This document shows, piece after piece, positions 4,237-22,888 of a stretch of 64,000 bases of DNA. This stretch comes from Escherichia coli (GTDB lineage Bacteria; Pseudomonadota; Gammaproteobacteria; Enterobacterales; Enterobacteriaceae). Every line of letters starts with the position of its first letter. The first letter of the stretch is position 1. The stretch lies in NCBI RefSeq assembly GCF_003018255.1, contig NZ_CP027440.1; one strand, written 5' to 3'. The position numbers were made by a program, and so were the translations under genes. Under the pieces are notes generated by a model. It had not been told where the DNA came from. It saw only the letters and a program-made list of their open reading frames with translations, and searched no databases.

Positions 4237-5187
4237 ATGCTGAGCGCATTTCAACTGGAAAATAACCGACTGACCCGGCTGGAAGTCGAAGAGTCACAAC
4301 CCCTTGTAAATGCAGTATGGATTGATCTTGTCGAACCGGACGACGACGAGCGACTGCGCGTACAATCTGAACTTGGTCAGAGCCTGGCAACCCGCCCGGA
4401 ACTGGAAGACATCGAAGCATCGGCACGTTTCTTTGAAGACGATGACGGCCTGCATATTCACTCCTTCTTCTTCTTTGAAGATGCGGAAGATCACGCCGGT
4501 AACTCTACTGTGGCATTTACCATCCGTGATGGTCGTCTGTTTACTCTGCGTGAGCGTGAACTGCCTGCATTCCGTCTGTATCGTATGCGCGCCCGTAGCC
4601 AGTCAATGGTGGACGGTAACGCCTACGAGCTGCTGTTGGATCTGTTCGAAACCAAAATCGAACAGTTGGCGGATGAAATTGAAAACATCTACAGCGATCT
4701 GGAGCAGTTGAGCCGGGTGATTATGGAAGGGCATCAGGGCGATGAGTACGACGAGGCGCTCTCCACGCTGGCGGAACTGGAAGATATCGGCTGGAAAGTT
4801 CGCCTGTGTCTGATGGATACCCAGCGTGCGCTCAACTTCCTGGTACGTAAAGCACGCTTACCGGGTGGGCAACTGGAGCAGGCGCGTGAAATCCTGCGAG
4901 ATATCGAATCCCTGCTGCCGCATAACGAATCCCTGTTCCAGAAGGTGAACTTCCTGATGCAGGCGGCGATGGGCTTTATCAATATCGAGCAGAACCGCAT
5001 CATCAAAATCTTCTCGGTGGTATCCGTGGTGTTCCTGCCACCGACGCTGGTCGCTTCCAGCTACGGGATGAACTTTGAGTTTATGCCGGAACTGAAGTGG
5101 AGCTTCGGCTACCCAGGCGCGATTATCTTTATGATCCTCGCGGGCCTGGCACCGTATCTGTACTTTAAGCGGAAGAACTGGTTGTAA
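4237..5187 (+). CDS. corA: Magnesium/cobalt transport protein CorA
   Basis: C-terminal two TM helices with YGMNF motif and KRKNWL tail; start set at the internal Met ([10 protein letters not shown]) giving 316 aa as in K-12; the ORF track start at 4222 is probably an upstream extension. Confidence 0.95.
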
Positions 5188-5222
5188 TATAAATGCCGGG
5201 TAAAGATTGTTCTTTATCCGGC

Positions 5223-5720
5223 TTATTGCTGAAAATTGTCTTTTTCAAAGTCATGCGGGTTGAACACTCGCTCTATCTTATTTTCCTGGGTTAGTTGATA
5301 CTCATTGTTATCAGCAATAAAAAAATGAGTATTACGGTAAGGATATTCATTAATAACCATTAAATAGTTTTTTACGATGCAATTATCATTGCTCTTAATC
5401 GTCGGGAAACAGTAGAGATCTTCATACGGCCCTTCGATATATTTTTTATAGTCAGTGAAGCCATTACCGATATCAATAACATACCAGGTATGCCAACTAC
5501 CTTCTGGTAGGGGATGTTGATTTTTAATTTCATTCTGACGCTTCAGATACCAATTTATTTTATCGCTGTCAGTCCATGGCAGATGATCAACGACCAGAAA
5601 GACTGAATTGCCAGCATCAGAGTATGTATACAAAATCTGTACAGGACGCAATGTCCATAAATTATAGATGCAGCATAGAAGAAATAAACATAATATAATT
5701 TTCTGGAGTTTGCTTTTCAT
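5223..5720 (-). CDS. Hypothetical protein with N-terminal signal peptide/membrane anchor, candidate immunity protein
   Basis: 165 aa ORF; hydrophobic N-terminus KIILCLFLLCCIYNLW; start overlaps stop of the upstream 282 aa gene by 4 bp (ATGA); visibly AT-rich. Confidence 0.55.
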   Translation of the reverse strand: MKSKLQKIILCLFLLCCIYNLWTLRPVQILYTYSDAGNSVFLVVDHLPWTDSDKINWYLKRQNEIKNQHPLPEGSWHTWYVIDIGNGFTDYKKYIEGPYEDLYCFPTIKSNDNCIVKNYLMVINEYPYRNTHFFIADNNEYQLTQENKIERVFNPHDFEKDNFQQ

Positions 5721-6565
5721 AGATAATTTTCGATTCTTTCTATAGTGTTAAAATTGGTGAAAAAAGGTTTGAAAGCAAAGTCTTTATGCCGTTGTAAAAA
5801 GAACCATATGCGAAAAAATCTATATTTGCTATAAGTCTTGTTTTTGATATCAGTTACATCAAGACCGAAGTGGTCCTGTGCTACAAAATGAATTGTTGCA
5901 CTCCATCCTATAGCGTATTTTTGAAAACTTAAAAGAGATATTTTTTGAGCTGAAATATCATGAACACTGATTCCTAAGCCATTAAAACTGTCCTCGAAGT
6001 CATTAAATTTATTTAGTCTTGATGAAAGTAATTCGGTCTTAATCTTTTGTAGGAGAAGAGGCCGGTATCCTATCGTAGGTGTTGAAGAAATATCATTTTC
6101 GATACATTCTTTGATTACACGTATTGGGCTATTATAATCATATTTGTTTATTCGTTCATGAAAAGATAAGTTCAATTCCTGGCTATGGAAACTGTTGCCA
6201 TTTCCATATCTAAAATGATCAATCAGATCCTGGATGAGTGTTTTGTATTGTCCAAAAAAGGAAAACATTTTTGCCAGATCTTTCATTTCTGCAAATAAAA
6301 TATCAATACATTCACTTTGTGATATTTTTGTTCCAGAAGTTGGAACACTAAAAGCACCATAAGTAGAATTCGGCCCAGGAAAATGGTATTTAATGAGGCG
6401 GTAAGGATCAACTTTTGCAGAGATGTCGCTCAAGCCGAGTGAGAGAAAATCTTGTTCTTCCATATCCCCATATTGCATATCATCAGCAGAAAAATCATCG
6501 AATAAAGTAATAGTTTCGAAAAGTGTACAGGGCATATTAATTGATGAGCCTAATATGTTGTTCAT
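5717..6565 (-). CDS. Hypothetical protein, candidate toxin/effector, family not recognised
   Basis: 282 aa ORF without signal peptide, AT-rich codon usage; translationally coupled to the downstream secreted 165 aa ORF; occupies the corA-rarD gap. Confidence 0.55.
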   Translation of the reverse strand: MNNILGSSINMPCTLFETITLFDDFSADDMQYGDMEEQDFLSLGLSDISAKVDPYRLIKYHFPGPNSTYGAFSVPTSGTKISQSECIDILFAEMKDLAKMFSFFGQYKTLIQDLIDHFRYGNGNSFHSQELNLSFHERINKYDYNSPIRVIKECIENDISSTPTIGYRPLLLQKIKTELLSSRLNKFNDFEDSFNGLGISVHDISAQKISLLSFQKYAIGWSATIHFVAQDHFGLDVTDIKNKTYSKYRFFRIWFFLQRHKDFAFKPFFTNFNTIERIENYL

Positions 6566-6875
6566 TTATATTCTCCTTTCTTATAATTAAGGGCAATGTT
6601 AATTTGATAAGAAATAATAGGCTAAAAAAATTTTAAAAAAGAAATGCACTTCACATTTTTCATTACATTCTGAAGAGAACTTGGTTAATGATTGGTCTTG
6701 CTCATCGCTAATAACATAATGCTGAATTTACCAAAAATGAAATTTATTAAAGCAAATGAAAATATACAACGACGTCTGGAAATTCTGCCTTTCCTTATGT
6801 GAGTCTCCTGTCAGCATGGCAATATGCCCACTCTCATGCAAGAGTCGGCATATTTTTTCAGAATATATTTATTTT

Positions 6876-7766: not shown

Positions 7767-7817
7767 TGGCAAAACTCATTTTTTATTGGTAAAAGCAGTT
7801 TACCTGCTTTTACGTTA

Positions 7818-16520: not shown

Positions 16521-18782
16521 ATGACAATTCTTAATCACACCCTCGGTTTCCCTCGCGTTGGCCTGCGTCGCGAGCTGAAAAAAGCGCAAGAGAGTTATTG
16601 GGCGGGGAACTCCACGCGTGAAGAACTGCTGGCTGTTGGGCGTGAATTACGTGCCCGTCACTGGGATCAACAAAAGCAGGCGGGTATCGACCTGCTGCCG
16701 GTGGGCGATTTTGCCTGGTACGATCATGTACTGACCACCAGTCTGCTGCTGGGTAACGTTCCGCCACGTCATCAGAACAAAGATGGTTCGGTAGATATCG
16801 ACACCCTGTTCCGTATTGGTCGTGGACGTGCACCGACTGGCGAACCTGCGGCGGCAGCGGAAATGACCAAATGGTTTAACACCAACTATCACTACATGGT
16901 GCCGGAGTTCGTTAAAGGCCAACAGTTCAAACTGACCTGGACGCAGCTGCTGGAGGAAGTGGACGAGGCGCTGGCGCTGGGCCACAAGGTCAAGCCCGTG
17001 CTGCTGGGGCCGGTTACCTACCTGTGGCTGGGTAAAGTGAAAGGTGAACAGTTTGATCGCCTGAGCCTGCTGAACGACATTCTGCCGGTTTATCAGCAAG
17101 TGTTGGCAGAACTGGCAAAACGCGGCATTGAGTGGGTACAGATCGACGAACCAGCGCTGGTACTGGAACTACCGCAGGCGTGGCTGGACGCATACAAACC
17201 CGCTTACGACGCGCTCCAGGGCCAGGTGAAACTGCTGCTGACTACCTATTTTGAAGGCGTAACGCCAAATCTCGACACGATTACTGCGCTGCCTGTTCAG
17301 GGGCTGCATGTGGACCTTGTACATGGTAAAGATGACGTTGCTGAACTGCACAAGCGTCTGCCTTCTGACTGGCTACTGTCTGCGGGTCTGATCAATGGTC
17401 GTAACGTCTGGCGCGCCGATCTTACCGAGAAATATGCGCAAATTAAGGACATTGTCGGCAAACGCGATTTGTGGGTGGCATCTTCCTGCTCGTTGCTGCA
17501 CAGCCCCATCGACCTGAGCGTGGAAACGCGTCTTGATGCAGAAGTGAAAAGCTGGTTTGCCTTCGCCCTACAAAAATGCCATGAACTGGCACTGCTGCGC
17601 GATGCGCTGAACAGTGGTGATACGGCGGCTCTGGCAGAATGGAGCGCTCCGATTCAGGCGCGTCGTCACTCTACCCGTGTCCATAATCCGGCGGTAGAAA
17701 AGCGTCTTGCAGCCATTACCGCCCAGGACAGTCAGCGTGCGAATGTCTATGAAGTGCGTGCTGAAGCCCAGCGTGCGCGTTTTAAACTGCCCGCGTGGCC
17801 GACTACCACGATTGGTTCCTTCCCGCAAACCACGGAAATTCGTACACTGCGTCTGGATTTCAAAAAGGGTAATCTCGACGCCAACAACTACCGCACGGGC
17901 ATTGCGGAACATATCAAGCAGGCCATTGTCGAGCAGGAACGTTTGGGACTGGATGTGCTGGTACATGGCGAGGCCGAGCGTAATGACATGGTGGAATACT
18001 TTGGCGAGCATCTGGATGGCTTTGTCTTTACGCAAAACGGTTGGGTACAGAGCTACGGTTCCCGCTGCGTGAAGCCACCGATTGTCATTGGTGACGTTAG
18101 CCGCCCGGCACCAATTACCGTGGAGTGGGCGAAATATGCACAATCGCTGACCGACAAACCGGTGAAAGGGATGCTGACGGGGCCGGTAACCATACTCTGC
18201 TGGTCATTCCCGCGTGAAGATGTCAGCCGTGAAACCATCGCCAAACAAATTGCGCTGGCGCTGCGTGATGAAGTGGCGGACCTGGAAGCCGCTGGAATTG
18301 GCATCATCCAGATTGATGAACCGGCACTGCGCGAAGGTTTACCGCTGCGTCGCAGCGACTGGGATGCCTATCTCCAGTGGGGCGTGGAGGCTTTCCGTAT
18401 CAACGCCGCCGTGGCGAAAGATGACACACAAATCCACACTCACATGTGTTACTGCGAGTTCAACGACATCATGGATTCGATTGCGGCGCTGGACGCAGAC
18501 GTCATCACCATCGAAACCTCGCGTTCCGACATGGAGTTGCTGGAGTCGTTTGAAGAGTTTGATTATCCAAATGAAATTGGTCCAGGCGTCTATGACATTC
18601 ACTCGCCAAACGTACCGAGCGTGGAATGGATTGAAGCCCTGCTGAAGAAAGCGGCAAAACGCATTCCGGCAGAGCGTCTGTGGGTAAACCCGGACTGTGG
18701 CCTGAAAACGCGCGGCTGGCCAGAAACCCGCGCGGCACTGGCGAACATGGTGCAGGCGGCGCAGAATTTGCGTCGGGGATGA
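16521..18782 (+). CDS. metE: Cobalamin-independent methionine synthase
   Basis: 753 aa; duplicated UroD-like barrel, C-terminal zinc-binding His/Cys/Glu region (HMCYCEF...); divergent from metR. Confidence 0.97.
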
Positions 18783-18821
18783 TGAGTATTAACGAGTCAT
18801 TGTAAATTGCAGTACGATAAT

Positions 18822-18847
18822 GGCTTCCAGTACTGGAAGCCATTTTG
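18822..18847 (+). terminator. Rho-independent terminator downstream of metE (possibly bidirectional)
   Basis: Inverted repeat ggcttccag/ctggaagcc followed by attttgc. Confidence 0.6.
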
Positions 18848-18950
18848 CATGAGTGCCAGATTGAAGCAGATCTTCAGGAGTAGAAATAACCGAATCGTTT
18901 TTTTCGCAAAACACAGTTTTGAGTGATTCCGTTCAGTAATCAACGCTACG

Positions 18951-19211
18951 TTATTTATTCTCACGTTGCACGAGATTGTATCCCTTTTCACTAACGTGGT
19001 AGTGAGGCATAGACTTATGCCCGCTATCCTCAATAATAACCAAACCTTCGTTAGCTAATTTGTTAACAATATTAACAATATTACCGAATCCTGGTATTTG
19101 CCTTATGGATAGTGTGCGATCGAGATTCATCCAGTTCCAGTTTATATCTTTCTCAGTCATAACGTTCAGCACGTTAAGTTCATTTTTAGTGATCACGATA
19201 TTCTGTACCAA
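18951..19211 (-). CDS. Candidate immunity protein, paralog 2 (distal copy)
   Basis: 86 aa; clearly paralogous to the 19271..19528 ORF (shared NVL.VM.EKDI.W.WM.LDRTL.IR.IPGFGN..NIV.KL...GLV); AT-rich; downstream of the Hcp-fusion gene. Confidence 0.6.
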   Translation of the reverse strand: MVQNIVITKNELNVLNVMTEKDINWNWMNLDRTLSIRQIPGFGNIVNIVNKLANEGLVIIEDSGHKSMPHYHVSEKGYNLVQRENK

Positions 19212-19270
19212 AATTGATGAGTATCTTATTGAAAGATCACAATGTAAATCATGCTCCTGTAATGGCTGGA

Positions 19271-19528
19271 TCAGAAGAGGTTGTCTTGTTGTTCTTTGAT
19301 AAGATTCAATCCATATTGAGAAACTCTGTAGCGTGGTTTAGAGTTGCCCTCACCATTTACGATATCAACCAACCCATGATTAACCAGCTTTGTTACGATA
19401 TTCGCTACGTTGCCAAATCCTGGAATATTTCGTATAGCTAAAGTACGATCCAGCACCATCCAGCTCCAGTCAATATCTTTCTCAGCCATAACTTTCAGCA
19501 CGTTAAATTCAACTATCGTAATCGTCAT
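19271..19528 (-). CDS. Candidate immunity protein, paralog 1 (proximal copy)
   Basis: 85 aa; start codon overlaps stop of the Hcp-fusion gene by 4 bp (ATGA at 19525-19528), i.e. translationally coupled; paralog of the 18951..19211 ORF. Confidence 0.65.
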   Translation of the reverse strand: MTITIVEFNVLKVMAEKDIDWSWMVLDRTLAIRNIPGFGNVANIVTKLVNHGLVDIVNGEGNSKPRYRVSQYGLNLIKEQQDNLF

Positions 19529-20658
19529 TTTTTTGCATCCGGATGAAATAAGTCAGTATCTTTAATTTTAAAGTCTTCTAGAGTTGCAGTATGTACATTA
19601 TTCCATAATTCATATCCATCTAAACCTTTCGGTTCACCTGTTTCCCATCCTAAATTACAATAACGCTGATACTCGCGACATTCATGAGTATAGTAGTTCA
19701 GATCGTATTTTTCAGGAAGCAATTCTTTATTTGCTATTTTCTTTAGCCTTGAAATCATTACATCATTAGCTGGATCATGATCAAATCTGGAGATATGCTT
19801 TTCAACAATAGCGATACCTTCCCTGTTGATTGTTACGCCATCTATCGTCAGGTTTTCAATTGGACCACCGGCAAGGTCGGGATTAAATGGTCTTCCTGAT
19901 ACTGCTCCTCTGGCTCCGAAATGCTCAAGTGATTCCAAATCAGGGAATCTCATTCTTCCCAGAACAACTCCAGCAACTATTGAAGCACCAGCGATGAGTA
20001 ACCCTTTGTTATCCATAACTTGATCGTAACCAGCAGGTGCATCTCCTCCCAACTTGTTTGCTGTTTCCCTGAATCCTTCGATATTCCCATTGTATATGCC
20101 GCCAGCAGCAAGCAGTCTGCCAACCGCTTTACTATTGAGTGTTTTGAGGCCATTATCATCTTTAGTTTTTGGCCGTGGTATAAACAGACGGTTGTAGTTA
20201 TCGGGAAATGCCAAATAACTAAATTCAGTATTAGCAATCAGATGCCTGGAGAGTATATATTCATAACTGGCAGTGATGGTTTCTGTATCCAGATTGTTCT
20301 CAGTAAACAGGTGATTGATTGCTGATAAGAGCGCGCCGCGGAGTTGAATGTTGTAATATTTCTCCCATCGACCAAATCTATTGATCCGATAGAAGTCAAA
20401 CTCCATGAACAACTGCTCGTTATTGTTAATAGCGTTAATAAGTAACGGGGAGCTTTTGTCAATCAACTTACAGAAACTAAGGCCATGTAATTGTGACCCT
20501 TTGCCTGTATTCGTAATACTATTAGATAGCGAGAACGCGAAGATTTCATCTTCATGGCCAATCTGCCAGCGATTACCTATTGATGCGCTCGTTCCGCAAC
20601 GAGAGGAAATACATCCTTGTTGTTCTCCGGTTATGGTCAGGTAAATAATATCACTCAT
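19525..20658 (-). CDS. Hcp (T6SS tube protein) domain fused to C-terminal extension of unknown function: candidate Hcp-ET type effector
   Basis: 377 aa; first ~165 aa resemble enterobacterial Hcp from memory (YLTITGEQQGCISSRCGTSASIGNRWQIGHEDEIFAF...KLIDKSSPLLINAI...EFDFYRI); ~210 aa C-terminal extension with GxxxG-rich hydrophobic segment and His/Glu/Tyr-rich tail (YYTHECREYQRY); AT-rich. Confidence 0.75.
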   Translation of the reverse strand: MSDIIYLTITGEQQGCISSRCGTSASIGNRWQIGHEDEIFAFSLSNSITNTGKGSQLHGLSFCKLIDKSSPLLINAINNNEQLFMEFDFYRINRFGRWEKYYNIQLRGALLSAINHLFTENNLDTETITASYEYILSRHLIANTEFSYLAFPDNYNRLFIPRPKTKDDNGLKTLNSKAVGRLLAAGGIYNGNIEGFRETANKLGGDAPAGYDQVMDNKGLLIAGASIVAGVVLGRMRFPDLESLEHFGARGAVSGRPFNPDLAGGPIENLTIDGVTINREGIAIVEKHISRFDHDPANDVMISRLKKIANKELLPEKYDLNYYTHECREYQRYCNLGWETGEPKGLDGYELWNNVHTATLEDFKIKDTDLFHPDAKK

Positions 20659-21049
20659 CCTTGAAAAACCTTTTGTTAATTCTTTTGTGAAAGAAAAATA
20701 GTATTGTTATTTTTTACCTTTATTTACGCCCAAAAGGGATGAACTAAAATGTGAAAAACAAAATGTTTCACTTTAATATCTTTTTATCAGGAAGGTCTGA
20801 GATAATTTATAATTAATGTGAATGTGTTGATAATAATTAATGTTTGTTTGAGAATGGGAGTTGATGGTAAATCTCTAAGGTGTCTGCCAGTGAAGAGACT
20901 CATTTATGACTATGACTTGCCGACTTTCTTAAGGTCAAATAGCGGAGTCGTGCTCTCCAATCAATTCATACTGATTATTTTTTGGGGGACAGAGATGGCA
21001 GCAAAATGCACTCGTTCACTCACCATCTCAAATATAGACTAAGAGGAAA
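20659..21049 (-). promoter_or_regulatory. AT-rich upstream/promoter region of the Hcp-fusion operon
   Basis: About 390 bp strongly AT-rich non-coding DNA upstream of the Hcp-fusion start; no precise -35/-10 assigned. Confidence 0.4.
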
Positions 21050-21862
21050 CTAATTCCGCTTCCCACCATACTGCTTAAACCACTCCAGCATACGCTGCCA
21101 GCCATCTTTCGCAGATTCGGCATGATAGCTCGGGCGATAATCGGCGTTGAATGCATGCCCGGCATCCGGGTAGACGATAATCTCTGCTTTCGCATTAGCA
21201 GCCCGCAGCGCCTGGCGCATGGTTTCAACGCTCTCCTGCGGAATGCTGTTATCCTGACCACCATATAAGCCGAGAACCGGCGCGTTAAGATCGGTTGCGA
21301 TATCAACAGGTTGTTTCGGTGAATTCAGCGACTTGTCGCCCGTCAGTTTGCCGTACCACGCCACTGCGGCTTTTAGCTGTGGATTATGCGCGGCATACAG
21401 CCAGGTGATACGTCCACCCCAGCAGAATCCGGTGATCATTAAACGATGAACATCGCCGCCGTTGCGGGAAGCCCAACTGGCGACATGATCGAGATCGGCC
21501 AGCACCTGCGAGTCAGGCACTTTTGCTACCAGACCGCTAAGCAACGTGGGGATATCGGCAAAATCATTCGGATCGCCTTCGCGGAAGTAAAGTTCAGGTG
21601 CAATAGCCAGATACCCCTCCAGCGCCAGACGGCGACAAATGTCGCGGATATGTTCATGCACGCCAAAAATTTCCTGCACTACAATGACCACTGGCAGTGG
21701 GCCATCGCTTTGCTTTGGTCTGGCATGGTAAGCAGGCATGTTATCCCCTTGTGAAGGGATAGAGGTGAAGCCCGCCACAATCGCGTCGTCCGGAGTCTGA
21801 ACGATGGTCGAAGCGAGAGGCGATGCCGCAGGTGCAAATCCAGATTGTTGTGTTGTTGCCAT
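21050..21862 (-). CDS. ysgA: Dienelactone hydrolase family protein YsgA
   Basis: alpha/beta hydrolase with dienelactone hydrolase-like sequence (GFCWGG nucleophile region); start chosen at MATTQQSGF; ORF track start at 21928 is a longer alternative. Confidence 0.85.
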   Translation of the reverse strand: MATTQQSGFAPAASPLASTIVQTPDDAIVAGFTSIPSQGDNMPAYHARPKQSDGPLPVVIVVQEIFGVHEHIRDICRRLALEGYLAIAPELYFREGDPNDFADIPTLLSGLVAKVPDSQVLADLDHVASWASRNGGDVHRLMITGFCWGGRITWLYAAHNPQLKAAVAWYGKLTGDKSLNSPKQPVDIATDLNAPVLGLYGGQDNSIPQESVETMRQALRAANAKAEIIVYPDAGHAFNADYRPSYHAESAKDGWQRMLEWFKQYGGKRN

Positions 21863-21982
21863 GGTATTCTCCGTACCCTTATAAAAATGTTGCGCAATGT
21901 TAACTATAGTCAGCATGCAACAAATCACATTGCCTGAATCGGCTCATCTTTTATGCAGTCCTGCAGAATGAAGAGTGATTTA

Positions 21983-21998
21983 TGTGATTTGCATCACT
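21983..21998. promoter_or_regulatory. Candidate CRP binding site in the udp promoter region
   Basis: tgtgatttgcatcact matches TGTGA-N6-TCACA consensus closely; udp is known to be CRP/CytR regulated. Confidence 0.6.
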
Positions 21999-22123
21999 TT
22001 TGATGGGTAAATTTATGCAACGCATTTGCGTCATGGTGATGAGTATCACGAAAAAATGTTAAACCCTTCGGTAAAGTGTCTTTTTGCTTCTTCTGACTAA
22101 ACCGATTCACAGAGGAGTTGTAT

Positions 22124-22888
22124 ATGTCCAAGTCTGATGTTTTTCATCTCGGCCTCACTAAAAACGATTTACAAGGGGCTACGCTTGCCATCGTCCCTGG
22201 CGACCCGGATCGTGTGGAAAAGATCGCCGCGCTGATGGATAAGCCGGTTAAGCTGGCATCTCACCGCGAATTCACCACCTGGCGTGCAGAGCTGGATGGT
22301 AAACCTGTTATCGTCTGCTCTACCGGTATCGGCGGCCCGTCTACCTCTATTGCTGTTGAAGAGCTGGCACAGCTGGGCATTCGCACCTTCCTGCGTATCG
22401 GTACAACGGGCGCTATTCAGCCGCATATTAATGTGGGTGATGTCCTGGTTACCACGGCGTCTGTTCGTCTGGACGGCGCGAGCCTGCACTTCGCACCGCT
22501 GGAATTCCCGGCTGTCGCTGATTTCGAATGTACGACTGCGCTGGTTGAAGCGGCGAAGTCAATTGGTGCCACCACTCACGTTGGTGTGACGGCTTCTTCT
22601 GATACCTTCTACCCGGGTCAGGAACGTTACGATACTTACTCTGGTCGCGTAGTTCGTCACTTTAAAGGTTCTATGGAAGAGTGGCAGGCGATGGGCGTAA
22701 TGAACTATGAAATGGAATCTGCAACCCTGCTGACCATGTGTGCAAGTCAGGGCCTGCGTGCCGGTATGGTAGCGGGGGTTATCGTTAACCGCACCCAGCA
22801 AGAGATCCCGAATGCTGAGACGATGAAACAAACCGAGAGCCATGCGGTGAAAATCGTGGTGGAAGCGGCGCGTCGTCTGCTGAAATAA
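22124..22888 (+). CDS. udp: Uridine phosphorylase
   Basis: Start at [11 protein letters not shown] (253 aa); PNP/UDP phosphorylase family motifs; K-12 synteny. Confidence 0.95.

What the first reader, a model, noticed from the sequence alone, without database searches (positions are those of the whole stretch)
20659..21049. Long AT-rich leader upstream of the Hcp-fusion operon, possibly a silenced promoter
About 390 bp of strongly AT-rich non-coding DNA (runs such as ttaattaatgtgaatgtgttgataataattaatgtttgtttg) lies between the ysgA stop and the Hcp-fusion start. Such tracts in horizontally acquired enterobacterial DNA are commonly bound and silenced by H-NS, so the module may be expressed only under specific conditions.
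Basis: inference. Interest (0 to 1): 0.4.

Follow-up and report, generated by a model that had tools for sequence, protein, structure and literature searches.

The report
AT-rich upstream region of Hcp-toxin cassette
The 391-bp gap is the upstream control region of a horizontally acquired type VI secretion toxin cassette; its AT-rich half next to the gene is a conserved module shared with E. coli K-12 yhhZ, and published ChIP-seq shows the silencer H-NS on the equivalent cassette in strain CFT073, so it is an ordinary silenced-island promoter region.

Summary
Window 20659-21049 is a 391-bp unannotated spacer between the ysgA stop and the start of a 377-aa Hcp-toxin fusion, with 33% GC against 50.8% for the window.

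The spacer has two parts. The 200 bp next to the gene have 25.7% GC. They form a conserved cis-module that travels with this Hcp-toxin clade and is also found upstream of K-12 yhhZ, Salmonella and Citrobacter relatives (profile E 1e-6 to 1e-11, although synonymous sites are saturated). The far 190 bp have 41% GC, occur only in this lineage, and tolerate an IS3 insertion or replacement by the 16-kb tkt1 island.

The H-NS idea is supported indirectly. Published CFT073 ChIP-seq lists the orthologous cassette genes (c4754, c4755, hcp_2) and the paralogue yhhZ as H-NS/StpA-bound.

Several things are not shown:
- No transcription start is known.
- The conserved module contains no canonical sigma-70 promoter.
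- Derepression in an hns mutant is untested.

A perfect CpxR box (20713-20727) is specific to this lineage. I found no Rfam family, RNA structure, Fur box, ops element or coding potential.

Verdict: a new member of a known kind. Interest is low to moderate.

The parts
20659..21049 (-). Whole 391-bp intergenic region between the ysgA stop and the Hcp-toxin start (33.0% GC)
   Evidence: no annotation in the E. coli genomes that hold it; no Rfam hit
20659..20850 (-). Proximal, extremely AT-rich half (about 26% GC). This is the conserved cis-regulatory module of the Hcp-toxin cassette. It is homologous at about 71-73% to the B2/CFT073 leader and detectable by profile in the K-12 yhhZ, Salmonella and Citrobacter leaders.
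   Evidence: (nhmmer E 1.5e-6 in the window; reciprocal E 1e-9 to 1e-11)
20781..20799 (-). Conserved block 1, CAGACCTTCCTGATAAAAA (family consensus cAGAyyTtcCTcA.aAAA). It lies in the -35 region of the candidate promoter CAGACC-18-TAAAGT.
   Evidence: alignment of nine leader sequences representing several lineages; promoter scoring
20756..20775 (-). Conserved block 2, TAAAGTGAAACATTTTGTTT, the best-conserved element. Its 16-mer TAAAGTGAAACATTTT is identical in the window, CFT073 and Citrobacter NCU1. It is either a weak -10 (TAAAGT) or an operator for an unidentified factor.
20713..20730 (-). Conserved block 3, GGCGTAAATAAA, which overlaps a perfect CpxR consensus GTAAATAAAGGTAAA (20713-20727). 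Only the first half-site is conserved outside this lineage.
   Evidence: P of about 0.003 for a perfect box in shuffles of the leader
20669..20674 (-). Likely Shine-Dalgarno sequence AAAAGG, 10 nt upstream of the ATG (20658-20656). It is conserved in position across lineages.
   Evidence: read directly from sequence and alignment
20851..21049 (-). Distal half (about 41% GC). It is lineage-specific filler, absent from B2 strains where the tkt1 island begins at this point, and interrupted by IS3 in strain 21AH126. It has no homologue in any other fetched locus. It carries the only two sigma-70-like matches on the cassette strand (20938-20909 and 21001-20974).
20784..20813 (+). Best sigma-70 consensus match in the region (TTATCA-18-TATAAT, 10/12). 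It points away from the cassette, antisense into the 3' end of ysgA, and may be a spurious promoter of the kind common in AT-rich DNA.
19525..20658 (-). Hcp-toxin fusion (Hcp-ET, 377 aa). It has an Hcp domain at residues 1-147 and is 74% identical to K-12 YhhZ over residues 1-230. The C-terminal toxin domain is unclassified.
18951..19528 (-). Two tandem paralogous small ORFs (85 and 86 aa, 58% identical to each other), inferred to be immunity genes.
18783..21058 (.). The whole islet, inserted in the metE/ysgA convergent spacer. It replaced the shared terminator hairpin and the last codons of both genes.

Best explanation
The region is the 5' control region of an orphan, horizontally acquired Hcp-toxin/immunity cassette, and it has two parts.

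The 170-200 bp next to the start codon are a conserved, extremely AT-rich promoter-operator module. This module belongs to the 'constant' 5' part of a polymorphic toxin family: module, then Hcp domain and linker, followed by variable toxin and immunity genes. The remaining 190 bp or so are lineage-specific junction DNA with no sign of function.

The AT-rich module and the AT-rich cassette behind it are coated by an H-NS/StpA filament. This keeps an intrinsically weak, non-canonical promoter off under ordinary growth, and expression would need counter-silencing or an activator.

What is shown: composition, acquisition by horizontal transfer, conservation of the module, and H-NS/StpA occupancy of the orthologous and paralogous cassettes in other strains. 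What is inferred: occupancy in this strain, the position of the promoter, and the silencing itself.
For: AT-richness and lack of coding.

Horizontal acquisition: empty site in most genomes, 38% GC islet.

Conserved module:
- A profile built only from yhhZ-type leaders hits the 64-kb window solely at 20705-20801 on the - strand (E 1.5e-6). The reciprocal searches give E 1e-9 to 1e-11.
- The module occurs in three different chromosomal contexts: metE-ysgA, yhhY-ggt, and a Citrobacter locus.
- Synonymous sites of the adjacent Hcp domain are saturated (pS 0.78-0.90), yet leader blocks remain nearly identical. This indicates purifying selection on those blocks.

H-NS:
- CFT073 ChIP-seq lists c4754, c4755 and hcp_2 as H-NS- and StpA-bound (0.45, 0.35, 0.58; signal lost in the hns stpA mutant) and yhhZ at 0.79.
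- K-12 yhhZ and yrhA are reported H-NS-bound.
- The hcp2B operon in APEC is H-NS-repressed.
- More distant Hcp-toxin genes in five other contexts also have 26-32% GC in the 200 bp upstream.

Weak promoter: there is no 9/12 sigma-70 match on the cassette strand within the conserved module, none at all in the K-12 or Citrobacter NCU1 leaders, and no positionally conserved prediction.
Against: There are no ChIP, transcription-start or expression data for this strain or this leader allele. The CFT073 leader is only about 71-73% identical, and its Hcp gene is a pseudogene. The published ChIP values are per gene, so the leader itself is not scored. No match of 8/10 or better to the reported high-affinity H-NS motif TCGATAAATT was found. 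The islet removed the native terminator of ysgA, and no terminator-like site lies in the spacer. Read-through from ysgA could therefore contribute to expression regardless of any local promoter. H-NS binding does not by itself prove silencing.
Confidence: 0.62

Rival explanations
1. The module is primarily a target of a specific regulator. In this lineage that would be CpxR~P, through the perfect tandem box GTAAATAAAGGTAAA at 20713-20727. It would link toxin expression to envelope stress, either as an activator/counter-silencer or, given the box's position close to the start codon, as a repressor. This can coexist with H-NS silencing.
For: The box is perfect. The 64-kb window holds 2 perfect matches against 0.06 expected, and the probability of one in shuffles of the leader is about 0.003. 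It is 9/10 conserved in CFT073. In APEC, CpxR~P binds the hcp2B promoter of T6SS2 and activates it (PMC6534853).
Against: The second half-site is not conserved in the K-12 yhhZ, Salmonella or Citrobacter leaders; only GTAAA within block 3 is. Six motifs were tried, so the corrected significance is modest. The box ends only 54 nt before the ATG and would overlap any nearby promoter, which is an unusual position for activation. No binding data exist.
Confidence: 0.2
2. The spacer has no promoter of its own. The cassette is expressed by read-through from ysgA, because the islet deleted the shared metE/ysgA terminator. The spacer is then just an untranslated linker, possibly subject to Rho termination.
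For: The empty site has a terminator hairpin that the islet replaced. No terminator-like site lies on the - strand in 20659-21060, and the region has no stable structure (z-score 0.24). The RNA strand is C-rich relative to G (GC skew +0.24 on the + strand). The module contains no canonical sigma-70 promoter.
Against: The same module precedes the gene in unrelated contexts: after yhhY in K-12 and Salmonella, after a different gene in Citrobacter, and after the divergently oriented hxlB in B2 strains, where no upstream gene reads toward it. Its blocks are under purifying selection. This argues for an autonomous promoter/operator.
Confidence: 0.12
3. The region encodes something else: a small RNA, a riboswitch-like leader, or a small protein.
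For: ORFs of 74 aa (+ strand, 20818-21042) and 38 aa (- strand, 20903-20787) exist. A strong sigma-70-like site lies on the + strand at 20784-20813.
Against: No Rfam match at E<=1. Folding energies are no better than shuffles (z-scores 0.24 and 0.84). The ORFs have no family hit, are not annotated in any genome and are not conserved in the other leader lineages.
Confidence: 0.04

Closest known systems
E. coli K-12 yhhY-yhhZ intergenic region and the yhhZ-yrhA locus
   Same: yhhZ encodes an Hcp-toxin fusion that is 74% identical over residues 1-230. Its leader shares the conserved module, is equally AT-rich (27-30% GC), and the locus is reported H-NS-bound in K-12 and CFT073.
   Different: It sits at a different chromosomal site (yhhY-ggt) and has a different C-terminal toxin and immunity genes. 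Leader identity is only about 56%, so it is found by profile search and not by blastn. It has no CpxR tandem box.
CFT073 / B2 cassette c4754-c4755-hcp_2 at the metE end of the 16-kb tkt1 island (PMC3349570)
   Same: It occupies the same insertion site. The immunity genes and coding sequence are 98-100% identical. The proximal leader is homologous. H-NS/StpA occupancy has been measured by ChIP-seq.
   Different: The Hcp gene is a pseudogene with an internal stop. The leader is a different allele (about 73% identical), with a sharp breakpoint at codons 4-5. The distal 190 bp are replaced by the tkt1 island.
APEC hcp2B-vgrG2 operon promoter (T6SS2)
   Same: It is an hcp operon outside the main T6SS transcription unit that is repressed by H-NS in rich medium and bound and activated by CpxR~P through a GTAAA-N(4-8)-GTAAA site (PMC5874247 and PMC6534853).
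   Different: No sequence homology was tested or is claimed. The hcp2B protein is a plain Hcp followed by vgrG and PAAR-effector genes, not a fusion. Regulation of the present cassette is untested.
EAEC sci1 / APEC T6SS1 promoters (Fur-repressed, Dam-sensitive)
   Same: They are AT-rich T6SS promoters held off by a global repressor.
   Different: The best Fur-box match here is only 12/19, and I saw no GATC in the leader by eye. The Fur model is not supported.

Membership tests
H-NS-silenced xenogeneic DNA | AT content well above the genome average | tested here: met
   33.0% GC (25.7% in the proximal half) against 50.8% for the window; 1.4th percentile of 391-bp windows. The islet is 38% GC.
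H-NS-silenced xenogeneic DNA | Horizontally acquired (presence/absence polymorphism, insertion into a conserved backbone) | tested here: met
   841 of 5426 genomes carry it. The empty site is a 38-bp metE/ysgA spacer.
H-NS-silenced xenogeneic DNA | H-NS occupancy of the orthologous or paralogous locus by ChIP | tested here: met
   Published CFT073 ChIP-seq gives c4754 0.45, c4755 0.35, hcp_2 0.58 and yhhZ 0.79, all flagged bound, with StpA likewise. K-12 yhhZ/yrhA are reported bound. The data are per gene and from another strain.
H-NS-silenced xenogeneic DNA | H-NS occupancy of this leader in this strain, and derepression in an hns mutant | not testable with these tools
   No data exist for this strain or allele. 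The RNAP/class sheet of the CFT073 data set is truncated in the stored copy.
H-NS-silenced xenogeneic DNA | High-affinity nucleation motif TCGATAAATT (not obligatory) | tested here: not met
   No match of 8/10 or better on either strand.
CpxR regulon promoter | Tandem GTAAA-N5-GTAAA box | tested here: met
   Perfect box at 20713-20727 on the - strand. The window has 2 matches against 0.06 expected; P of about 0.003 in leader shuffles.
CpxR regulon promoter | Box conserved in related leaders | tested here: not met
   9/10 in CFT073. No box within one mismatch at the homologous position in K-12, Salmonella or Citrobacter.
CpxR regulon promoter | CpxR~P binding and Cpx-dependent expression | not testable with these tools
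   This needs an EMSA and nlpE/cpxR genetics.
Canonical sigma-70 promoter | -35/-10 hexamers matching at least 9/12 on the cassette strand within the conserved module | tested here: not met
   The only - strand matches are in the non-conserved distal half (20938-20909 and 21001-20974). There are none in the K-12 or Citrobacter NCU1 leaders. The best match in the module is CAGACC-18-TAAAGT, at 4.3 bits.
Fur-repressed T6SS promoter | Fur box close to GATAATGATAATCATTATC | tested here: not met
   Best match is 12/19.
RfaH-dependent (ops) operon leader | ops element GGCGGTAGnnTG | tested here: not met
   No match within 2 mismatches inside 20659-21049.
Structured RNA leader / Rfam family | Covariance-model hit or unusually stable fold | tested here: not met
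   No Rfam hit at E<=1. Fold z-scores are 0.24 and 0.84.
Polymorphic Hcp-ET toxin cassette (constant 5' region) | N-terminal Hcp domain, variable C-terminal toxin, downstream immunity gene(s) | tested here: met
   TIGR03344 and PF05638 match residues 1-147. Identity to YhhZ is 74% up to residue 230 and then nil. The O145 and B25FEP variants share the leader but carry a different toxin. The immunity function is inferred.

The most novel reading that the evidence does not exclude
The conserved module of about 170 bp is a dedicated regulatory cassette that moves with a whole family of orphan Hcp-toxin genes. Of 5426 E. coli genomes, 4440 carry at least one cassette, and some carry three. Its invariant core, TAAAGTGAAACATTTT together with the flanking blocks, would be the operator of a still unidentified factor that counter-silences H-NS and synchronises the scattered toxin cassettes with T6SS firing. 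The metE-ysgA lineage would additionally have gained a CpxR input.
Probability: 0.2. Interest if true: 0.5.

Novelty: new member of a known kind. Interest (0 to 1): 0.25.

Why it matters
Orphan Hcp-toxin cassettes are common antibacterial weapons in E. coli, and how they are switched on is essentially unstudied. Three results make that question easier to approach:
- The cassette carries its own conserved upstream module.
- The module is shared with K-12 yhhZ, which makes K-12 a tractable model for it.
- The equivalent loci are H-NS/StpA-coated in published data.

Together these give a concrete 200-bp fragment and three short blocks to mutate. Otherwise this is a textbook case of xenogeneic silencing, and no new principle is involved.

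Tried and rejected
- Rfam search of 18000-22500 at E<=1 found nothing.
- RNA folding of both halves of the leader gave structures no more stable than shuffles.
- Intrinsic terminator for ysgA inside the spacer: none found. A hairpin I saw by eye in the K-12 yhhY-yhhZ spacer fails the scan's terminator criteria, so I did not use it as evidence.
- Motif scans with Fur, CRP, FNR, sigma-54 and the H-NS high-affinity consensus gave only weak matches: Fur at most 12/19 and one FNR-like 13/14 in a non-conserved AT run.
- RfaH ops element: absent.
- Positionally conserved sigma-70 promoter across nine leader sequences: none.
- Motif shared between the module and the non-homologous leaders of five more distant Hcp-toxin genes: the best 12-mer score of 46 equals the null mean of 46.1. 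nhmmer found nothing either.
- Homologues of the distal half in any other fetched locus: none.
- The genome-contig scan with the Hcp domain returned only 3 loci.
- The original Hcp-ET paper (Ma et al. 2017, Virulence) and the Kahramanoglou supplement are not held.
- The cap on papers stopped me from reading the K-12 TSS paper that mentions yhhY.
- The C-terminal toxin domain has no Pfam, NCBIfam or PDB sequence match. I did not predict its structure.

Full report
**1. What is there**

On the - strand, ysgA occupies 21928-21050. A 377-aa ORF starts at 20658 and ends at 19525, followed by ORFs of 85 and 86 aa (19528-19271 and 19211-18951). metE (+ strand) ends at 18782.

The 377-aa protein has an Hcp/TssD domain at residues 1-147 (TIGR03344 at 124 bits; PF05638). 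RefSeq annotates it as tssD.

The spacer 20659-21049 is 391 bp with 33.0% GC, against 50.8% for the window. Only 1.4% of 391-bp windows in the 64 kb are as AT-rich.

Nothing is annotated in this spacer in any listed E. coli genome that carries it (385 genomes hold at least 80% of it). The spacer has no Rfam match, no unusually stable RNA fold, and no ORF with a family hit.

**2. The cassette is an inserted islet**

Most E. coli have only a 38-bp metE/ysgA spacer containing a shared hairpin (L003). In this window, 2.27 kb of 38%-GC DNA (18783 to about 21058) replaces that hairpin and the last codons of both genes.

The islet is present in 841 of 5426 complete genomes. In phylogroup B2 strains such as CFT073 and UTI89, the same cassette sits at the metE end of the known 16-kb tkt1 island (PMC3349570). 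In those strains the Hcp gene carries an internal stop.

**3. The spacer is composite**

The proximal part, 20659-20860, has 25.7% GC. The distal part, 20861-21049, has 40.7% GC.

Across E. coli, 385 genomes hold at least 80% of the spacer (387 match it at 95% identity or more). A further 461 genomes, of which every listed record is a B2-type strain, hold only window 20690-20848, at about 71% identity. Upstream of that point the B2 sequence is unrelated and leads into hxlB of the tkt1 island. In strain 21AH126 an IS3 element sits in the distal part. The distal half matches nothing else that I fetched. I regard it as junction DNA that tolerates disruption.

**4. The proximal half is a conserved module of the toxin family**

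Relatives of the Hcp domain were recovered from several places:
- two Citrobacter genomes, in a different chromosomal context;
- the yhhY-ggt locus of E. coli and Salmonella, which in K-12 is yhhZ.

A profile built only from the 200 bp upstream of yhhZ-type genes, with coding sequence excluded, finds one significant place in the 64-kb window: 20705-20801 on the - strand, E = 1.5e-6. The reciprocal profile finds the K-12, E. coli and Salmonella leaders at E 1.6e-9 to 2.2e-11. In every case the hit lies at the equivalent distance from the start codon.

Nine leader sequences align into three blocks plus a Shine-Dalgarno sequence:
- cAGAyyTtcCTcA.aAAA at window 20799-20781;
- TAAAGTGAAACATTTTrTTT at 20775-20756;
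- GGCGTAAATAAA at 20730-20719.

Between the window and the intact relatives (K-12, Citrobacter NCU1, Salmonella), synonymous sites of the adjoining Hcp domain are saturated (pS 0.78-0.90). Despite that, the blocks persist, which indicates selection on the blocks rather than shared recent ancestry.

The protein is 74% identical to YhhZ up to residue 230 and unrelated beyond it. The O145 and B25FEP variants keep this leader at about 96% identity but carry another toxin. The module therefore belongs to the constant 5' part of a polymorphic toxin locus.

More distant Hcp-toxin genes (57-68% identity), found in five further contexts, also have 26-32% GC upstream. They show no homology to the module and share no motif with it beyond chance.

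**5. Mosaicism**

The window and CFT073 are 98-100% identical from metE through the immunity genes and the toxin gene (18700-20640). Identity then falls to about 73% from codons 4-5 outward. This points to an exchange of the leader allele by recombination, not to drift.

**6. H-NS**

Data set S1E of Hustmyer et al. 2022 (PMC9765446) reports H-NS and StpA ChIP-seq in CFT073. In its list of H-NS-bound genes, three entries follow directly after rarD:

| Gene | Length | H-NS occupancy |
|---|---|---|
| c4754 | 258 bp | 0.45 |
| c4755 | 690 bp | 0.35 |
| hcp_2 | 294 bp | 0.58 |

- StpA values are similar for all three genes.
- The signal falls to 0.02-0.04 in the hns stpA double mutant.
- The next entry in the rows seen is c4760, so c4757-c4759 do not appear among them.
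- By length and position, these three genes are the 85-aa immunity-like ORF and the two fragments of the Hcp pseudogene. The hcp_2 fragment abuts the leader and scores highest.
- The paralogues yhhZ and yrhA score 0.79.
- In K-12, segments inside yhhZ and yrhA are classed as H-NS-bound 'promoter islands' (PMC3661553).
- H-NS repression of an orphan hcp operon has a published precedent in APEC (PMC5874247).

H-NS/StpA coating of the equivalent loci is therefore documented. Occupancy of this allele in this strain, and its effect on transcription, remain inferences.

**7. The promoter**

On the cassette strand, the only consensus-level sigma-70 matches lie in the non-conserved distal half: TTGACC-18-CATAGT at 20938-20909 and CTGCCA-16-AATAAT at 21001-20974.

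Within the conserved module, the best candidate is the weak CAGACC-18-TAAAGT. Its -10 is the start of block 2 and keeps A at position 2 and T at position 6 in all lineages. The K-12 and Citrobacter NCU1 leaders have no 9/12 match at all. A weak promoter that depends on an activator or on counter-silencing fits these results, but the transcription start is unknown.

The best match in the whole region lies on the opposite strand (TTATCA-18-TATAAT, 20784-20813) and points into the 3' end of ysgA.

The islet removed the ysgA terminator, and no terminator-like site follows. Read-through from ysgA is therefore possible. However, the module also occurs where no gene reads into it, which argues that it works on its own.

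**8. Specific regulators**

A perfect CpxR consensus, GTAAATAAAGGTAAA, lies at 20727-20713. The window contains two such sites against 0.06 expected, and the probability in shuffles of the leader is about 0.003. CpxR~P activates hcp2B in APEC (PMC6534853).

Against this, the second half-site is conserved only in CFT073 (9/10) and is missing from the K-12, Salmonella and Citrobacter leaders. I treat it as a lineage-specific lead.

The Fur, CRP, FNR, sigma-54, H-NS high-affinity and ops patterns gave nothing convincing.

**9. Verdict**

What the tools add:
- the two-part anatomy of the spacer;
- the conserved module shared with K-12 yhhZ;
- the breakpoint at the start codon;
- the lineage-specific CpxR box.

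This is a new member of a well-known kind, an H-NS-coated promoter region of a horizontally acquired toxin islet. Interest is low to moderate.

Noticed in passing
window 5150-6610 (ORFs 5223-5720 and 5717-6565, - strand): This is the lowest-GC stretch of the window (down to 29% GC). It lies between corA and rarD and encodes DUF943 and YPO3983-family proteins. By gene length and order these appear to be c4738 and c4739 of CFT073, which have H-NS occupancy 0.63 and 0.64 in the published ChIP-seq. That is higher than the values for the Hcp cassette.
   Followed up: partly
window 7799-7813 (- strand): A second perfect CpxR consensus, GTAAAAGCAGGTAAA, lies in the short gap between the rarD start (7772) and the stop of the upstream 161-aa ORF (7818). 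Two perfect sites in 64 kb compare with 0.06 expected.
   Followed up: no
window 18819-18844: A perfect 26-bp palindrome, AATGGCTTCCAGT/ACTGGAAGCCATT, sits at the left end of the islet, 37 bp after the metE stop. It may replace the lost bidirectional terminator, but it lacks a clear U-tract on either strand.
   Followed up: no
window 18783 and about 21050-21058; empty site L003:1583-1622: The islet replaced the shared metE/ysgA terminator hairpin and rewrote the last codons and stop codons of both flanking genes.
   Followed up: yes
window 20640-20660 compared with L005 (CFT073): There is a sharp mosaic boundary. The cassette is 98-100% identical to CFT073 over 18700-20640, but the leader is only about 73% identical from codons 4-5 outward. 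This implies that the leader allele was exchanged by recombination.
   Followed up: yes
window 19525-19960 (C-terminal 145 aa or so of the Hcp fusion): The toxin domain has no Pfam, NCBIfam or PDB sequence match and is unrelated to the C-terminus of YhhZ. Homologues at 71-77% identity are labelled 'colicin' or 'HNH endonuclease' in NCBI records. The linker (residues 171-237) matches two PHROG families of unknown function.
   Followed up: partly
window 18951-19528: Two tandem small ORFs (85 and 86 aa) are 58% identical to each other and unrelated to the K-12 yrhA product. They are presumably duplicated immunity genes.
   Followed up: partly
E. coli genome collection: Of 5426 complete E. coli genomes, 4440 carry at least one Hcp-toxin gene of this clade, mostly at the yhhZ site. 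The genome closest to the window (JNE23-011) has three places, so several cassettes with related leaders coexist in one cell.
   Followed up: partly
L006 (strain 21AH126), equivalent to window position about 21024: An IS3-family element is inserted in the distal part of the spacer, between the conserved module and ysgA.
   Followed up: partly
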